Of a stretch of DNA of 53,298 nt, positions 10,706 through 52,113 are shown piece after piece. The DNA comes from a virus (Duplodnaviria > Caudoviricetes), in the IMG/VR virus record IMGVR_UViG_3300044675_003062, positions 1 to 53,298 of that record; one strand, written 5' to 3'. Below the pieces are notes generated by a model, which was not told where the DNA came from, ran no database searches, and was given only the letters and a program-made list of their open reading frames with translations. A program made the position numbers and the translations under genes. Within the stretch, counting starts at the first letter, position 1; every line of letters begins with the position of its first letter.

Positions 10706-11719
10706 CTAGACCGCCAACTCAATCGCATTGGCCCACGCCCGCTCTTTGAAAGCGTGCGAGGAACCGAAAAGCACAGAGCGGAACTTCCGCTCGGCACGAA
10801 CGTCGCCCTTGCCGGTGACGCGGAGTTCGTGGTCAGCCCACTCGCTCGCCGCGTTGTAGGCCGTCCAGACGTTGGCCCCGTGGTTGCCCTCGTTGGTTGG
10901 CATGGCGAACCGATCCCAGAGGGCGGTCACCAGCTTGCCTCGGCTCTTGTCGCTACGGTTGCCGACCAGATCGCTGAAGTAGTCCGACACCTGCTGTGTC
11001 GAGACCGACTTCGCCATCATCTGCCGAGCCGCGAGGCCGAACCCCTCATGGCAGTTGTTGATGACGCCGAGGCACTCGCGAGCCTTCTCCACACGGCGGG
11101 ACAAGCCGCCCGCCGTGTGAAACAGCTTGAGTCCCAGCGGCAAGCCGTCCGCATTCTTGGCCTTGTCGGCCATCCCGATAGCGAGCCGCAGCGTGTTGGC
11201 ACAGACGACCCGCACGCTGGTCGGAAACAACCGCACCGCGCCGGTGCCGTCGTGGCTGTTGGTGATGAGAACGTACTTCTCCAGCACGTCGCGGTCGGTC
11301 ACCTCGACGTGGCCGGGGAGCTTGGCGAGCATCCAGACCTTGCGGCCCTGCCGCAGCGAGCCGCAGGTGTGCCACATTGCCATTGGATCATCGCCGCCCA
11401 CTACCTCATCCATCCATGCGAACGCTTCGCGGTTCTGAAGCGGCTGGTACCGCAGGCCGACAGCACCCAGAGCCATGCCGGTGTCGGCACGGTAGGTCGC
11501 CCGGTGCGTGCTGATCGGCAGATACCGCTGGTCAGCACCTTCGCCCATGTCAGCGGCGAGGTCGGTCAGTCGAACGTCCCAGTCCAGCCCGGCGATCCGC
11601 AAGGCGTCAGCCGAGGTCTGAGCCTCGCCAACCACCGTGCCAAACCCGTGCCAAGCTGGCTTGTAGGCGAACATCGCCGAGCCTTGGGCCTGCGTCGTGA
11701 AGTCAATTTCGTGAGCCAT
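10706..11719 (-). CDS. DUF932 / TIGR03299-like phage-plasmid protein
   Basis: MAHEI...PAWHGFG, AGLDWDV, YQPLQNREAF, GSLRQGRKVW, NSHDG, RVVCANTL, WTAYNA. Confidence 0.85.
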   Translation of the reverse strand: MAHEIDFTTQAQGSAMFAYKPAWHGFGTVVGEAQTSADALRIAGLDWDVRLTDLAADMGEGADQRYLPISTHRATYRADTGMALGAVGLRYQPLQNREAFAWMDEVVGGDDPMAMWHTCGSLRQGRKVWMLAKLPGHVEVTDRDVLEKYVLITNSHDGTGAVRLFPTSVRVVCANTLRLAIGMADKAKNADGLPLGLKLFHTAGGLSRRVEKARECLGVINNCHEGFGLAARQMMAKSVSTQQVSDYFSDLVGNRSDKSRGKLVTALWDRFAMPTNEGNHGANVWTAYNAASEWADHELRVTGKGDVRAERKFRSVLFGSSHAFKERAWANAIELAV

Positions 11720-12321: not shown

Positions 12322-12602
12322 TGCTTCTGCTCCTTCGCGGCCTGCCTCGCAGCCTTGCGTGCCGCCGCCTTCGCCTGTCGGGCGAGCAACGTGTCGGCCT
12401 GCTGCGAGAGCCACGCTGCGAAGCCCTGCGCCTCATGCGGCGTCATGTAGATGGACGCTGGCTCGCTGTATTGCTCAGTCACAGAACGCGACGGGTGAAT
12501 CCTCACCGCGACCGTCTCGGAGCAGCGGTGTGCCTCGATAGCGGCGGGAATGCGAACCCACTTCGACTGCGGCTTGAAGAAATGCTTTGAAGTCCGTCTC
12601 AT
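12318..12602 (-). CDS. Hypothetical protein
   Basis: 94 aa, ATGA-coupled, GAGGTG RBS. Confidence 0.6.
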   Translation of the reverse strand: MRRTSKHFFKPQSKWVRIPAAIEAHRCSETVAVRIHPSRSVTEQYSEPASIYMTPHEAQGFAAWLSQQADTLLARQAKAAARKAARQAAKEQKQ

Positions 12603-13105
12603 GCCATCACCTCATTGTTGATCGGCCAGACATACGGAAGGTCATCTGGCTCGGCCCATCCGAATCGGCCATACCACGCCGCGTCTTTGCGGAGAAGGTT
12701 GCTGCGATGGCTGGCGTGGAAGCCATGCAAGCCGAGCCACGGCGGCGACGATACAGACGTGCCTTTCTTGCCGTACACGAACTCTTGAGCGTCGTCGTCA
12801 TATCGAAGGTCGTTCAGCCAATCGTAGACCGCAACGAATTGATCGAGCAGCGAGTCCTTGTAGCCTCTTGCTCGCCACTCTTTGCACACGATCTGACCGT
12901 AGACCGCGAGCGACATCTCATGCCCTTGCCATATCCTCGCCGCGGGGTGGTTGGCCCACGACGATTTCTTTGGCTGGTGCTGACCGACCGGCACGCCGAG
13001 AGCGAGTAGCAACTGCTTCGTCTCGACTCGCTGCTTGCCAAGCCGCTTTGTGTCGAGGCACGCTGCGGAGTTGCGGAACGATGGATAGGGGAGGAAGGTT
13101 TGAAT
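12599..13105 (-). CDS. Pyrimidine-dimer DNA glycosylase-like protein (MSMEG_6728/DenV-like), probable ATT start
   Basis: Frame reads IQTFLPYPSF...CLDTKRLGKQRVETKQLL...NHPAARIWQG...EWRARGY...PPWLG...HASHRSNLLRKD...YVWP. Confidence 0.8.
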   Translation of the reverse strand: MQTFLPYPSFRNSAACLDTKRLGKQRVETKQLLLALGVPVGQHQPKKSSWANHPAARIWQGHEMSLAVYGQIVCKEWRARGYKDSLLDQFVAVYDWLNDLRYDDDAQEFVYGKKGTSVSSPPWLGLHGFHASHRSNLLRKDAAWYGRFGWAEPDDLPYVWPINNEVMA

Positions 13106-15871: not shown

Positions 15872-16729
15872 ATGCTTCTCACTGACCTGTTCGCCAATTA
15901 CTACCGCCCGCTCCGATTGCGAGGACGTTCAGACCAAACGTGCCGACTTTACTTCTGCACAATCCGCACATTCGGCAAGTGGCTGCAGTACCCACCGACT
16001 GTGGATGACCTGTCCGATCTTATGCTCAGTCGCTTCTTGGAAGAGCGAGCCGCGACTCGCAGCCCCTACACCGCTGAGAAGGAACGCACGCAGCTTGTAT
16101 CGCTCGCACGGTTTGCGCGGGATCGTGGGATTATCCAGACGATGCCGGAAGTACCGCCCGCTCCGCTGCCCGAGCGGGTGCCGCGTGCGTTCACACTGCC
16201 CGAGCTGCAAGGCATCATGCGTGCCGCTGCAGCGACTCGCGGAACGGTAGGACACGTCGCGGCTGGCGTCTGGTTCACCGCGTTGGTCAGTGTCCTTTGG
16301 GAGACGGCAGAGCGGATCGGTGCGGTGCTTGAGTGCGTGCCGGGAGACTTCACCGAGCCGCATCTTCTCGTCCGTGCCGAGGTGCGGAAGGGCGGGAAGC
16401 GGGACAAGGCGTACAGATTGTCCGAACGCACCGCTGCCTTGGTGCGTCAGGCGTCTGGCGAGCGGCGTATCTTTGAGTGGCCGCAGGCCCGCACCTACCT
16501 GTGGGCCAAGTACGCCGACATCGTGGCCCGTGCTGGGCTAGGGAAGGGCAGGCACCTGTCGTTCCATGCCCTACGCCGCTCGGCGGCATCTCACTTCCAG
16601 AGTCTCGGCGGCGATGCCGTAGCCCTGCTTGATCATTCCAACCCGCGCATCACGCACCGCTGGTATCTCGACCGTCGCATGACTGATCGAGGCCCGCAGC
16701 CGTGCGACTTGCTGCCTGACATATGGTGA
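15872..16729 (+). CDS. int: Tyrosine recombinase / integrase
   Basis: Catalytic residues R (TAERIG), K (RKGGK), HxxR (FHALRR), H (LLDHS), Y (HRWY); 285 aa from ATG 15872. Confidence 0.9.
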   Translation: MLLTDLFANYYRPLRLRGRSDQTCRLYFCTIRTFGKWLQYPPTVDDLSDLMLSRFLEERAATRSPYTAEKERTQLVSLARFARDRGIIQTMPEVPPAPLPERVPRAFTLPELQGIMRAAAATRGTVGHVAAGVWFTALVSVLWETAERIGAVLECVPGDFTEPHLLVRAEVRKGGKRDKAYRLSERTAALVRQASGERRIFEWPQARTYLWAKYADIVARAGLGKGRHLSFHALRRSAASHFQSLGGDAVALLDHSNPRITHRWYLDRRMTDRGPQPCDLLPDIW

Positions 16730-16845
16730 GGCGTTCCATATTCGCGAATCTGGAAAAAGGATGTGTCGCCCATGAGCGAAAATCGCAACACGTCGCTGGG
16801 TCGTGTCGATCTCCGCGACACTTTCGCCGCTGCGCGAGCGAAAGT

Positions 16846-16875
16846 TTGCAGCAGACAGCTGCGAAACGGTACAGT
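16846..16875 (+). promoter_or_regulatory. Possible promoter for the tRNA-like RNA
   Basis: TTGCAG, 18 nt, TACAGT, ending 10 nt before the RNA 5' end. Confidence 0.4.
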
Positions 16876-16885
16876 ACAACGCATC

Positions 16886-16989
16886 GGTGGGTGTGGCCGA
16901 GATGGACTCGGTGGCTGATCGTAAATCAGTCGCTACTCCTAGAGCGTGCGCACGCTCCTGTAGCCAGCCGTTCGATTCGGCCCCCACCA
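16886..16989 (+). tRNA. Non-canonical tRNA-like RNA, anticodon GTA (Tyr), tRNA-Sec/allo-tRNA-like geometry
   Basis: Acceptor GGTGGG(T)G/CCCCACC+A; D arm GCCGAG-ATGGA-CTCGGT; anticodon arm GGCTGA-TCGTAAA-TCAGTC; 33-nt variable arm; T arm GCCG-TTCGATT-CGGC. Confidence 0.7.
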
Positions 16990-17138
16990 CTAAAGTCTGC
17001 CCGCACGTTTGCGGCACCGTTGCGCGGCACTGCAGTTTGAACTTCATGCTCCGCTCGCTGCTGGCTCGCCTCGCCTGACTCGGCACACGGGGGCGGCAAG
17101 GGTGAAAGGTAGAAGCCCCTCGCCGCCGCACCCGTGGC

Positions 17139-17336
17139 CTAGTCGTGCGGCTTGTACCAATACAGCCCCGCCTTCTCGGCGTTGCGTGCCAGTTCAGCCA
17201 GGAGTCTTTGCCGCTCTTTGAGCAGCCGTATCACGTCCGCTGCGAGCGTGCCAGACGTGCCGGTGTACGCACCGGAGAATCGGCGTGCCCGGTGTTCCAT
17301 CTGTGCGAGGTCGTCCTCGGCGAGCGGCTGCGTCAC
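17139..17336 (-). CDS. Hypothetical protein
   Basis: 65 aa, GTGA-coupled; last gene of the leftward operon. Confidence 0.6.
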   Translation of the reverse strand: MTQPLAEDDLAQMEHRARRFSGAYTGTSGTLAADVIRLLKERQRLLAELARNAEKAGLYWYKPHD

Positions 17337-50976: not shown

Positions 50977-52113
50977 TCAATCCTTTGCAAGCGGCATGAT
51001 GACAGTGAACGCATCGTCGCAGCGAAGCAGCAGGGCGGCGGTGCCGCTCTCCGCTTCGATGTCTACCATCGCCGCACGGTCGAGCGACTCAAGCCACTCA
51101 ATCGCGAAGCCGGGGTTGATTTCCAATTCGCACTTCTGGCCCACCTCGACCAATTCGCACGAGGCCGACGACTCGCCGTACTCCGACGACTTGCCCGCCA
51201 GCTTCAGCCCTTTGTCGGTGAACGCCAACCGCGTCCCACGGCTGCTCTCGCTAGTGCAGATCGCCGCCATCTGGCAGGCATGGAGCAACGGCCCCACGCC
51301 CGCTACGGACTGCGTCACGTCGCGGTCTGGTAGCACCTTCCGCCATGCGGGAAAGTCACCCGCGACGAGCCGAGCCTGCACCACGACGCCGTCGATGTTG
51401 GCGATCAACTCCGTTCCCGCCGTTTCAAGCTGGATGGCGTCTCGACCGCCGCACAGCTTGCAGATCACGTCCACGGCCCGCCGGGGCACGAGCGTCTTGG
51501 AGGCGTCGAGGTCTTGATCCACCTCGCACTGCGCCCAGCACATTCGCCGACCATCAGACGCGACGAATGTCAGCTTGCCGTACTCGCTGTCCTTCTCGTT
51601 GGTGAACTCAATCAGCACACCCGTGTACGCTGGCCTGCCTGCCTTCGCGTCTGTGGCGAACTTCACGCTGCCCATCATGGACACGAACTGGTCTGCCGGA
51701 AGCCGGGAGATCGGACGCCCGACGCCTTCATGGGCATCGGGGAACTCGCTCACCGCCTCGGTCGGCAGTGACCATCGACCGCCAGCACAAGCCACCTTGC
51801 AGACTGAGCCGTCTACCGCAAGCGTCACCTCGGCGTCGTCGCTGCATGAGTTGAGAATCTGCAGCATCCTCGCGTGCGGCAGCAACACGGCTGGGCCGGT
51901 CGCACCGGGCAGCGGATACGTCACGCGTATCTCCAAGTCGGTCGCGGAGAGCGTGCCGTCCGAGCCGATCAACACGTTGCCCAGCACCGGGCGAGGCGAG
52001 CGAGCAGGCACCACGTCCTTCACCGCCGAGAACGCTGCCCGCAGTTCAGCGACGCTGAACTTGAGGGCGGTGCCACCACGTTGGGTCTTTGCGATCTTCT
52101 CTGCCGTAGTCAT
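50977..52113 (-). CDS. dnaN: DNA polymerase III beta sliding clamp
   Basis: PVLGNVLI, SATDLE, FVASDGRR, RLVAGDFP, INPGF, VIMPL; 378 aa. Confidence 0.85.
   Translation of the reverse strand: MTTAEKIAKTQRGGTALKFSVAELRAAFSAVKDVVPARSPRPVLGNVLIGSDGTLSATDLEIRVTYPLPGATGPAVLLPHARMLQILNSCSDDAEVTLAVDGSVCKVACAGGRWSLPTEAVSEFPDAHEGVGRPISRLPADQFVSMMGSVKFATDAKAGRPAYTGVLIEFTNEKDSEYGKLTFVASDGRRMCWAQCEVDQDLDASKTLVPRRAVDVICKLCGGRDAIQLETAGTELIANIDGVVVQARLVAGDFPAWRKVLPDRDVTQSVAGVGPLLHACQMAAICTSESSRGTRLAFTDKGLKLAGKSSEYGESSASCELVEVGQKCELEINPGFAIEWLESLDRAAMVDIEAESGTAALLLRCDDAFTVIMPLAKD

What the first reader, a model, noticed from the sequence alone, without database searches (positions are those of the whole stretch)
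16846..16992. Non-canonical tRNA-like gene (GTA anticodon, Sec/allo-tRNA geometry) behind the integrase
Seen: a 104-nt cloverleaf with 8 nt before the U8-equivalent (7 bp plus a bulged U against CCCCACC), a 6-bp D stem with 5-nt loop, and a 6-bp anticodon stem with loop UCGUAAA (C instead of the usual U33). It also has a two-helix 33-nt variable arm, a 4-bp T stem with UUCGAUU loop, discriminator A and no separate encoded CCA. It has a plausible promoter and is, with int, the only plus-strand gene called here, so it could be expressed in lysogens. Established: long D/anticodon stems and long V arms mark tRNA-Sec and 8/4 allo-tRNAs, and phage tRNA-Tyr can counter tRNA-cleaving defences such as retron PtuAB. 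Inference: a mis-acylated (e.g. Ser) Tyr-codon reader, a nuclease-resistant substitute or decoy, or a regulatory tRNA mimic. This is my best candidate for an undescribed system.
Basis: partly seen in the sequence, partly recalled or inferred. Interest (0 to 1): 0.85.

Follow-up and report, generated by a model that had tools for sequence, protein, structure and literature searches.

The report
tRNA-Tyr look-alike inside a phage gene
A lake phage carries a conserved, oddly shaped tRNA-Tyr look-alike that standard tRNA finders miss and that sits, in reading frame, as an insert inside a small protein-coding gene, so one stretch of DNA appears to serve as both folded RNA and protein linker.

Summary
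The cloverleaf is real. 265 of 272 pair cells are paired, and 7 of 34 pairs show compensatory double changes. ARAGORN and Rfam do not call it a tRNA.

It is not a free-standing gene tied to the integrase. It is a 123-126-nt insert in a conserved site (..ETV|CPHVRG..) of a widespread small phage gene. 108 of 120 listed relatives have that site without the insert. In 7 of 7 other DNA contexts it lies in phase in an unbroken ORF. Substitutions inside it follow RNA pairing, not codon position. Each phage has one copy and no ordinary tRNA. No copy turned up in 185,579 species genomes. In this window the host gene is broken but the element is intact.

Best reading (inferred, about 0.4): a tRNA-Tyr mimic released from the mRNA, acting as a nuclease-resistant substitute or decoy. 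Expression, processing and charging are untested.

The parts
15872..16729 (+). Tyrosine integrase gene, directly upstream of the module
   Evidence: PHROG phrog_1 integrase, E 5.9e-20. 14 related loci were found.
16730..17078 (+). Accessory module between the integrase stop and the hairpin: a decayed small gene carrying the tRNA-like insert
   Evidence: The module is absent from L002, whose integrase is 94% identical. There the integrase stop is followed directly by the hairpin.
16773..16918 (+). N-terminal remnant of the host gene (MSENRNTS..VDLRDTFAAA..). It is out of frame with the rest and ends at a TGA inside the anticodon stem.
   Evidence: tblastn of P0083 residues 7-27 lands on 16781-16843, in a different frame from the main match at 16830-17051. 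Frame listing.
16830..17078 (+). Main open frame of the host gene, running through the element (LRERKFAADSCETVQYNAS-[element]-KVCPHVCGTVARHCSLNFM-LRSLLARLA*). It has an internal deletion of the TLTDEER..AT segment.
   Evidence: P0006 residues 59-132 match at 76% identity, E 2.7e-40. Comparison with intact relatives.
16872..16885 (+). 14-nt 5' flank of the insert, absent from uninserted relatives
   Evidence: Junction comparison with L033, L035, L036, L037 and L051.
16886..16989 (+). tRNA-like element, G1 to discriminator A (104 nt). Acceptor 5' strand 16886-16893, D arm 16896-16912, anticodon arm 16913-16931, variable arm 16932-16964, T arm 16967-16981, acceptor 3' strand 16982-16988.
   Evidence: Pair tables, RNAalifold, covariance model R1 at 128.9 bits.
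16921..16923 (+). Anticodon GUA, in the 7-nt loop UCGUAAA with C at position 33
   Evidence: Read from the sequence. The loop is invariant in all 8 distinct copies.
16990..16997 (+). 3' trailer of the insert (C + UAAAGUC). No CCA is encoded.
16998..17051 (+). Conserved coding motif of the host gene (CPHV.GTV..HCSLNF), which follows ..ETV directly in uninserted relatives
   Evidence: Its variable sites fall 3/2/11 on codon positions 1/2/3.
17075..17146 (.). Long GC-rich hairpin between the plus-strand module and the convergent minus-strand genes. It is shared with L002.
   Evidence: Hairpin-type weak matches; the same sequence in L002. No T-run terminator was called.

Best explanation
Shown (confidence about 0.9 for this part):
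- Window 16886-16989 is a tRNA-Tyr-derived RNA fold kept by selection on base pairing.
- It is carried as a 123-126-nt in-frame insert inside a small, modular phage gene.
- It is present once per phage and is the only tRNA-like gene there.

Inferred mechanism:
- The element is transcribed as part of that mRNA and folds into a tRNA-like L-shape. GG in the D loop and the UUCGAUU T loop are kept.
- It is cut out by the host tRNA-processing enzymes (RNase P at G1, RNase Z after A73) and then receives CCA.
- The released RNA of about 104 nt keeps the bacterial tyrosine identity set: G1-C72, A73, GUA and a long variable arm.
- Its variable arm is remodelled to 30-33 nt, it has C33, and its D and T arms are altered.
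- It would therefore act as a substitute or decoy that host tRNA-Tyr-directed defence nucleases cannot cut or are soaked up by.
- The open frame is kept only because the host protein must still be made from unprocessed mRNA.
For: Fold under selection:
- 265 of 272 cells are paired over 8 distinct copies, and 7 of 34 pairs change on both sides.
- The tool count gives 97.6% paired, against 30-54% in slid controls. Five both-side pairs compare with 0 in the slid controls, and 0 of 500 shuffles reach the covariation score.
- RNAalifold finds the cloverleaf unaided.
- G.U pairs fit the plus strand only. The minus strand scores 17 bits against 123 bits.

RNA constraint rather than protein constraint:
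- Variable sites fall 5/3/4 and 2/2/2 on codon positions 1/2/3 inside the element.
- They fall 3/2/11 in the adjoining 45 coding bases.

tRNA-specific parts are the most constant. The anticodon loop is 0 of 7 variable, the T stem 0 of 4 pairs variable, and G1-C72 and A73 are the same in 8 of 8 copies.

Insert status.

Copy number and other tRNAs:
- One copy in each of 5 other phage records, two of them complete.
- No ordinary tRNA in the window or in those two complete relatives.

In the window the host ORF is frameshifted and deleted, while the element is intact.

Precedent from papers:
- Septu and retron-Eco7 PtuAB cut the variable arm of tRNA-Tyr. T5 tRNA-Tyr is reported resistant through its distinctive variable loop (PMC13096335, passages).
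- Phage tRNA-Tyr rescues infection (PMC11555353, passages).
- Phage tRNAs carry anticodon-loop changes (PMC10264068, passages).
Against: - No expression, processing or charging data exist.
- The acceptor/T branch has 10-11 pairs (6-7 plus 4) rather than 12. C33 replaces the near-universal U33. Both should weaken use by EF-Tu and the ribosome, which favours a decoy over a decoder.
- The single-sequence minimum-energy fold is not the cloverleaf (-50.7 against -45.9 kcal/mol).
- The family is narrow: 8 distinct copies, 80-100% alike. Constant loops could therefore partly reflect recent common descent.
- Host and host defences are unknown.
- Among 20 of 62 window ORFs tested against Pfam, none is a tRNA-related enzyme.
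- Being embedded in a translated ORF is unusual for a tRNA gene.
Confidence: 0.4

Rival explanations
1. Selfish or neutral in-frame cassette, comparable to Rickettsia palindromic elements. The structured, tRNA-derived DNA/RNA spreads among modular phage genes by recombination. It is tolerated only where it keeps the frame, and its fold serves its own spread or nothing.
For: - Presence/absence polymorphism: 12 of 120 listed family proteins carry it and 108 have the site without it.
- Many different 5' and 3' junctions.
- 18 protein clusters at 50% identity hold it internally.
- It always sits in the same frame, with 0 proteins carrying the frame-2 reading.
- RPEs are a precedent for in-frame structured inserts (PMC10969869, passages).
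Against: - One copy per phage genome.
- No terminal inverted repeats or clear target duplication at the junctions.
- The tRNA-specific loops and identity positions are the most constant parts.
- The element is intact where the host gene has decayed.
Confidence: 0.25
2. Cis-acting mRNA element. The tRNA-like fold inside the coding region is a cleavage site for RNase P/Z or a ribosome obstacle. It sets the level of the host protein or uncouples its N- and C-terminal modules. The released RNA has no role of its own.
For: - It sits exactly at module boundaries of the host protein. The upstream modules end where stand-alone PHROG families end. L025 residues 4-49 match positions 21-70 of 71 in phrog_20565, and the element starts at residue 52.
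- The frame stays open through it in 7 of 7 other contexts.
- A TGA lies in the anticodon stem in one alternative frame.
Against: - Most family members work without it (108 of 120).
- An invariant anticodon loop and the tyrosine identity positions are not needed for a mere cleavage site.
- It persists in the window although the host ORF is broken.
Confidence: 0.15
3. Working decoder of the allo-tRNA type: a mis-acylated (for example Ser) or suppressor tRNA that reads Tyr or near-cognate codons.
For: - Long D and anticodon stems and a long variable arm resemble tRNA-Sec and allo-tRNAs (PMC5389517, sections 13, 14 and 16).
- Allo-tRNAs carry many anticodons, and some occur in phages.
Against: - The branch is not 8/4 or 9/3 with 12 pairs.
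- The discriminator is A73, not the G73/U73 of most allo-tRNAs.
- No tRNA-Sec or tRNA model hit at E up to 10.
- C33 is present.
- The D loop has 5 nt rather than 4.
Confidence: 0.08
4. Phage attachment site: a copy of a host tRNA gene used by the neighbouring integrase. Its position inside a gene would resemble integration-dependent immunity (recalled).
For: It lies right behind the integrase in the window and in L003, and tyrosine integrases often target tRNA genes.
Against: - L002, with a 94% identical integrase, lacks it entirely.
- 12 further integrase relatives also lack it.
- In the 5 other contexts no homologue of this integrase is adjacent (ORF lists for L016, L017, L020 and L023).
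- The exact-pattern scan of 185,579 species genomes gave 3 hits, all chance.
- A full-length copy with a non-canonical shape is not what an attP core looks like.
Confidence: 0.04
5. Decayed tRNA-Tyr pseudogene or chance fold.
For: ARAGORN and Rfam do not recognise it. The host gene around it is decayed in the window.
Against: Compensatory changes in five of the six helices, and only 7 of 272 cells unpaired. Folding z-score is -4.47.
Confidence: 0.03

Closest known systems
allo-tRNAs and tRNA-Sec-like tRNAs (Mukai et al. 2017, PMC5389517; sections 13, 14 and 16 read)
   Same: Long variable arm, 6-bp D stem, 6-bp anticodon stem, shortened 4-bp T stem, occurrence in phages and metagenomes, and being missed or mis-scored by standard tRNA finders.
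   Different: - The acceptor branch is 6-7 + 4 pairs, not a 12-bp 8/4 or 9/3.
- The D loop has 5 nt, not 4.
- The discriminator is A73, not G73/U73.
- C33 is present.
- The variable arm has two helices and 30-33 nt.
- There is no tRNA-Sec model hit.
- It lies inside an ORF.
Phage tRNA-Tyr genes that counter Septu / retron-Eco7 PtuAB (PMC11555353 and PMC13096335; passages read)
   Same: Phage-borne, GUA anticodon, and a changed variable arm, which is the arm those nucleases cut.
   Different: Those are canonical tRNAs in tRNA clusters of virulent coliphages, and they act by decoding. This one is non-canonical, single, embedded in a protein gene, of unknown host, and untested.
Rickettsia palindromic elements and other intragenic MITEs (PMC10969869; passages read)
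   Same: A structured insert of about 100-150 nt that enters protein-coding genes in frame and is read through as extra peptide.
   Different: - RPEs are multi-copy palindromes with no tRNA features.
- This element is single-copy, cloverleaf-shaped and keeps tRNA loop motifs.
- No inverted-repeat ends were found.
tRNA-like structures within longer transcripts that are cut by RNase P/Z (for example MALAT1 mascRNA and viral 3' tRNA-like structures; recalled, plus the search listing)
   Same: A tRNA-shaped module inside a larger RNA that tRNA enzymes could recognise.
   Different: Those lie in non-coding or 3'-terminal regions of eukaryotic or RNA-virus transcripts. None known to me sits in frame in a bacteriophage ORF.

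Membership tests
Canonical bacterial tRNA | Detected by ARAGORN, or by the Rfam tRNA model at its gathering score | tested here: not met
   0 tRNAs in the window. 0 Rfam families at gathering score. No tRNA hit at E up to 10 on 16700-17150. The homologous loci behave the same way.
Canonical bacterial tRNA | 7-bp acceptor stem plus 5-bp T stem (12-bp branch), and U33 | tested here: not met
   6 certain pairs (plus a possible G8-C97) and a 4-bp T stem. C is at position 33 in 8 of 8 copies.
Canonical bacterial tRNA | T loop UUCRANN closed by G53-C61, and GG in the D loop | tested here: met
   The T loop is UUCGAUU or UUCGACU after GCCG/CGGC. The D loop is AUGGA or UUGGA, in 8 of 8 copies.
Bacterial tRNA-Tyr identity set (recalled: G1-C72, A73, G34 U35, long variable arm) | All four sequence elements present | tested here: met
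   G1-C, A73 and GUA are invariant in 8 of 8 copies. The variable arm is 30-33 nt.
Bacterial tRNA-Tyr identity set | Charged by TyrRS | not testable with these tools
   Needs an aminoacylation assay.
allo-tRNA (Mukai 2017) | 12-bp acceptor branch in 8/4 or 9/3 form | tested here: not met
   Only 7 nt are available on the 3' strand between the T stem and A73. The total is 10-11 pairs.
allo-tRNA (Mukai 2017) | Long variable arm, with long D and anticodon stems | tested here: met
   6-bp D stem with 2 covarying pairs, 6-bp anticodon stem, and a two-helix variable arm.
allo-tRNA (Mukai 2017) | [quoted passage not shown] | tested here: not met
   The D loop has 5 nt, the discriminator is A73, and there is no tRNA-Sec hit at E up to 10.
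attP copy of a host tRNA gene | Travels with the integrase, and an identical stretch exists in a host genome | tested here: not met
   It is absent from L002 (94% identical integrase) and from 12 other relatives. In genome contigs, 0 of 3 hits are true.
MITE / RPE-type intragenic repeat | In-frame insertion into ORFs with read-through | tested here: met
   7 of 7 other DNA contexts. 18 protein clusters hold it internally.
MITE / RPE-type intragenic repeat | Many copies per genome, terminal inverted repeats and target-site duplication | tested here: not met
   One copy per record. No clear duplication or inverted ends at the junctions.

The most novel reading that the evidence does not exclude
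The same ~105 bases form a dual-use gene. Read by ribosomes, they are a linker in a small phage protein. Folded and cut out by RNase P/Z, they yield a tyrosine-tRNA mimic with a rebuilt variable arm and C33. That mimic would defeat or soak up host nucleases that kill infected cells by cutting tRNA-Tyr. This would be a tRNA-type anti-defence RNA hidden inside a protein-coding gene, and invisible to tRNA finders.
Probability: 0.3. Interest if true: 0.85.

Novelty: new variant of a known kind. Interest (0 to 1): 0.68.

Why it matters
- It shows that a covarying tRNA-shaped RNA can live in frame inside phage protein genes, where neither tRNA finders nor gene callers flag it. Phage tRNA-like inventories are therefore probably incomplete.
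- If the RNA is released and acts on tRNA-Tyr-directed defences, it adds a compact, non-canonical type of counter-defence.
- It would also be a natural example of one sequence under both RNA-fold and reading-frame constraint.
- It offers a new tRNA scaffold (short branch, 6-bp D stem, two-helix variable arm, C33) for testing what RNase P, RNase Z, CCA-adding enzyme and TyrRS will accept.

Tried and rejected
- Standard detectors: ARAGORN and Rfam find nothing.
- INPHARED phages, distant blastn: no match.
- Promoter and terminator scan: nothing at the element.
- Expression: no RNA holder is listed. The one run guessed to be RNA is probably DNA and covers only 17048-17227. All four runs laid were contigs, so they cannot show ends.
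- attP reading: rejected (see rivals).
- 'Excised and exons rejoined' idea: I first noted element lengths of 102 and 105 nt. L020 and L023 are 104 nt, so the element alone is not always a multiple of three. No RNA ligase or tRNA enzyme appeared among the 20 of 62 window ORFs I sent to Pfam.
- Start codon in the D loop (AUG or UUG) as the start of the downstream module: considered, but no convincing ribosome-binding site precedes it (sequence).
- Variants with another anticodon: a scan that left the anticodon free returned the same 6 viral loci.
- Paralogues: the covariance model found none in 367 kb of loci or in 5 whole records.
- Host: the search for relatives of the virus record was not available, and the host stays unknown.
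- Earlier notes of this scan: nothing relevant.
- Print precedent for an in-frame tRNA-like insert in a phage ORF: none found in the listings. Only those two full-text searches were made. Supplements of the allo-tRNA paper, which hold its sequence sets, could not be seen.

Full report
**What the window is.** The window is a whole IMG/VR virus record of 53,298 bp that CheckV rates 100% complete. G+C is 61%. It carries portal, capsid, protease, terminase, helicase and primase genes, almost all on the minus strand. DNA runs that hold it are lake and freshwater metagenomes. A tyrosine integrase lies at 15872-16729 on the plus strand.

**The observation.**
- The acceptor 5' strand GGUGGGUG faces 3' CCCCACC.
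- The D stem has 6 bp with loop AUGGA.
- The anticodon stem has 6 bp with loop UCGUAAA. C is at position 33 and the anticodon GUA is at 16921-16923.
- The variable arm is 33 nt in two helices.
- The T stem has 4 bp with loop UUCGAUU.
- The discriminator is A, and no CCA is encoded.

ARAGORN finds no tRNA in the window. Rfam finds nothing at gathering score. On 16700-17150 at E up to 10, Rfam gives four weak hits, none of them a tRNA or tRNA-Sec hit. The stretch folds better than all 200 shuffles, with z = -4.47. The minimum-energy fold of the single sequence is an alternative one, at -50.7 kcal/mol against -45.9 for the cloverleaf.

**Relatives.**
- A search with the integrase gave 14 viral loci. 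Only one of them, L003, holds the element.
- Exact-pattern scans gave 4 of 4 and 6 of 6 true copies in viral contigs.
- The metagenome scan gave 4 true copies out of 8 hits; the other 4 were chance matches.
- The scan of 185,579 species genomes gave 0 true copies out of 3 hits.
- A scan that left the anticodon free returned the same six viral loci.
- INPHARED phages gave no match.

After removing duplicates there are 8 distinct copies, 80-100% alike and 102-105 nt long. They are the window, L003, L016, L019, L020, L021, L023 and L026.

**Is the fold selected?**
- I segmented the eight copies by hand in a script. 265 of 272 pair cells form standard pairs.
- Seven of the 34 pairs change on both sides: acceptor pairs 3 and 4, D pairs 1 and 5, variable-arm outer pair 3, and inner pairs 2 and 4.
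- The independent tool count used six sequences and 28 pairs. It gives 97.6% of cells paired, against 30-54% when partners are slid.
- That count finds five both-side pairs, against none in any slid control. Of 500 shuffles, 0 reach the covariation score and 2 reach the both-side pair count.
- RNAalifold predicts the same five-arm cloverleaf unaided. It leaves G8-C97 open, so the acceptor stem is 6 certain pairs.
- The many G.U pairs fit only the plus strand. The covariance model scores 96-129 bits on the plus strand and 17 bits on the minus strand.
- The anticodon loop, the T stem, G1-C72 and A73 never vary.

The element is a real, non-canonical tRNA-like RNA.

**The unexpected context.**
- In all 7 other distinct DNA contexts the element lies inside one unbroken open frame of 133-343 codons. 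It is always in the same phase (..VGV.EMDS.ADRKS.AT..QPFDSAP.T..).
- Protein-like sequence lies on both sides. An ATG start is present, and 5 of 7 have a GGAG-type motif upstream.
- The upstream parts belong to unrelated small phage families, and they end where those families end. L025 residues 4-49 match positions 21-70 of 71 in phrog_20565, and the element starts at residue 52. L017 residues 4-81 match phrog_13182, and the element starts at residue 80.
- The downstream end is a conserved module (..TLTDEER.AI....TLRSLLERL.).

A protein search showed the whole picture. Of the 120 listed relatives, 115 have the motif CPHVRGTVTQHC. In 108 of these it stands without the element, in most directly behind ..ETV. 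Only 12 of the 120 carry the element-coded peptide.

DNA of uninserted relatives reads ..GCGAAACGGTG|TGCCCGCAC... The window has 14 + 105 + 7 = 126 extra bases at that point, and L003 has 123.

Substitutions in the adjoining 45 coding bases fall 3/2/11 on codon positions 1/2/3. Inside the element they fall 5/3/4 and 2/2/2. The flanks therefore evolve as protein and the insert as RNA.

In a library of 1.84 billion cluster representatives, 18 clusters hold the peptide, all at internal positions of proteins of 90-295 aa. A control search with the other open frame of the element found no protein.

L020 and L023 have a 2-nt longer linker (104 nt) and still keep the phase. The simplest reason for the kept frame is purifying selection on the downstream part of the host protein, helped by recombination within the shared element. 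It does not by itself show that the peptide matters.

**Not an attachment site, not a multi-copy repeat.**
- L002 has a 94% identical integrase and goes from the integrase stop straight to the hairpin that lies at window 17075-17146. It lacks the roughly 350-nt module.
- The other integrase relatives also lack the element.
- In the five contexts other than L003, the element has no homologue of this integrase beside it. In the four I mapped (L016, L017, L020, L023) it sits among small genes on the same strand.
- The covariance model finds exactly one copy in each of five other phage records, two of them complete with terminal repeats.
- Those two complete relatives, like the window, have no ordinary tRNA gene.

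**State in this window.** The host gene is decayed here.
- Its N-terminal piece (16781-16843) is in a different frame from the rest (16830-17051). That upstream frame ends at a TGA in the anticodon stem.
- The TLTDEER..AT segment is deleted.
- The element itself is intact. This lineage thus keeps the RNA after losing the protein, which speaks for a role of the RNA itself, unless the decay is very recent.

**Mechanism.** What is shown is a selected tRNA-like fold with tyrosine identity marks, present once per phage, as an accessory insert in a translated gene.

What is inferred is release from the mRNA by RNase P and RNase Z, addition of CCA, and action as a tRNA-Tyr substitute or decoy.

The link to defence rests on published work. 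Septu and retron-Eco7 PtuAB cut the variable arm of tRNA-Tyr. T5 tRNA-Tyr is reported resistant through a distinctive variable loop (PMC13096335, passages; PMC11555353, passages). Phage tRNAs also carry anticodon-loop changes (PMC10264068, passages). Here the variable arm is the most rebuilt part and position 33 is changed.

Against a decoding role stand the short 10-11-pair branch and C33, so a decoy or mimic seems likelier than a working tRNA.

Rivals are a selfish in-frame cassette like the Rickettsia palindromic elements (PMC10969869, passages), a cis-acting processing or pausing signal, an allo-tRNA-type decoder, an attachment site, and a pseudogene. Their weights are given in the Rival explanations section.

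**Comparison with known kinds.**
- It resembles allo-tRNAs and tRNA-Sec in its long D and anticodon stems, long variable arm and 4-bp T stem (PMC5389517, sections 13, 14 and 16). It fails their defining 12-bp 8/4 or 9/3 branch, has A73, and gets no tRNA-Sec hit.
- It resembles phage anti-defence tRNA-Tyr genes in anticodon and in the altered variable arm, but it is non-canonical and sits within a gene.
- It resembles RPEs in being an in-frame structured insert, but it is single-copy and tRNA-shaped.
- Two full-text searches listed no report of a tRNA-like insert in frame in a phage ORF. I could not see supplements, including the allo-tRNA sequence sets.

**Verdict.** I rate it a new variant of known kinds, with a context that appears undescribed. 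Function is unproven, and expression data are the missing piece.

Noticed in passing
L019:532-604 (identical in L017, L029, L037-L040, L059, L060, L081): A second odd tRNA-like sequence. ARAGORN calls it 'tRNA-???' with a 6-nt anticodon loop. It has a good T arm and lies about 25-45 nt after the stop of the same host gene, including in relatives without the insert. All 10 copies held are identical, so there is no covariation to test. Rfam does not match it, and its folding z-score is -1.6. It is not present in the window.
   Followed up: partly
window 16998-17078 and proteins P0009-P0121: The host gene belongs to a large family of small modular phage proteins with a near-invariant CPHVRGTVTQHCSLNFTLTDEER..TLRSLLERL core and swapped N-terminal modules. 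It has no Pfam or PHROG family, and its function is unknown.
   Followed up: partly
L025:269-1297, L026:245-1021(-), proteins P0122-P0134: Several element-bearing ORFs string together three or more small modules without stop codons. The modules are joined by low-complexity linkers that repeatedly contain a ..GTG(N/D)T.. motif just before the next module.
   Followed up: no
L002:3823-3920 versus window 16700-17146: A phage with a 94% identical integrase lacks the whole ~350-nt module. The long GC-rich hairpin (window 17075-17146) follows the integrase stop directly there. No T-run terminator was called.
   Followed up: partly
L023:3667-3987: An ORF that looks like an HNH-type endonuclease, judged by eye from its sequence, ends right where the element-bearing ORF starts (3980).
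   Followed up: no
window 50977-52113, 10706-11719, 12599-13012 (all minus strand): The phage encodes a DNA polymerase III beta-clamp homologue, a DUF932 protein and a pyrimidine-dimer glycosylase-like protein.
   Followed up: no
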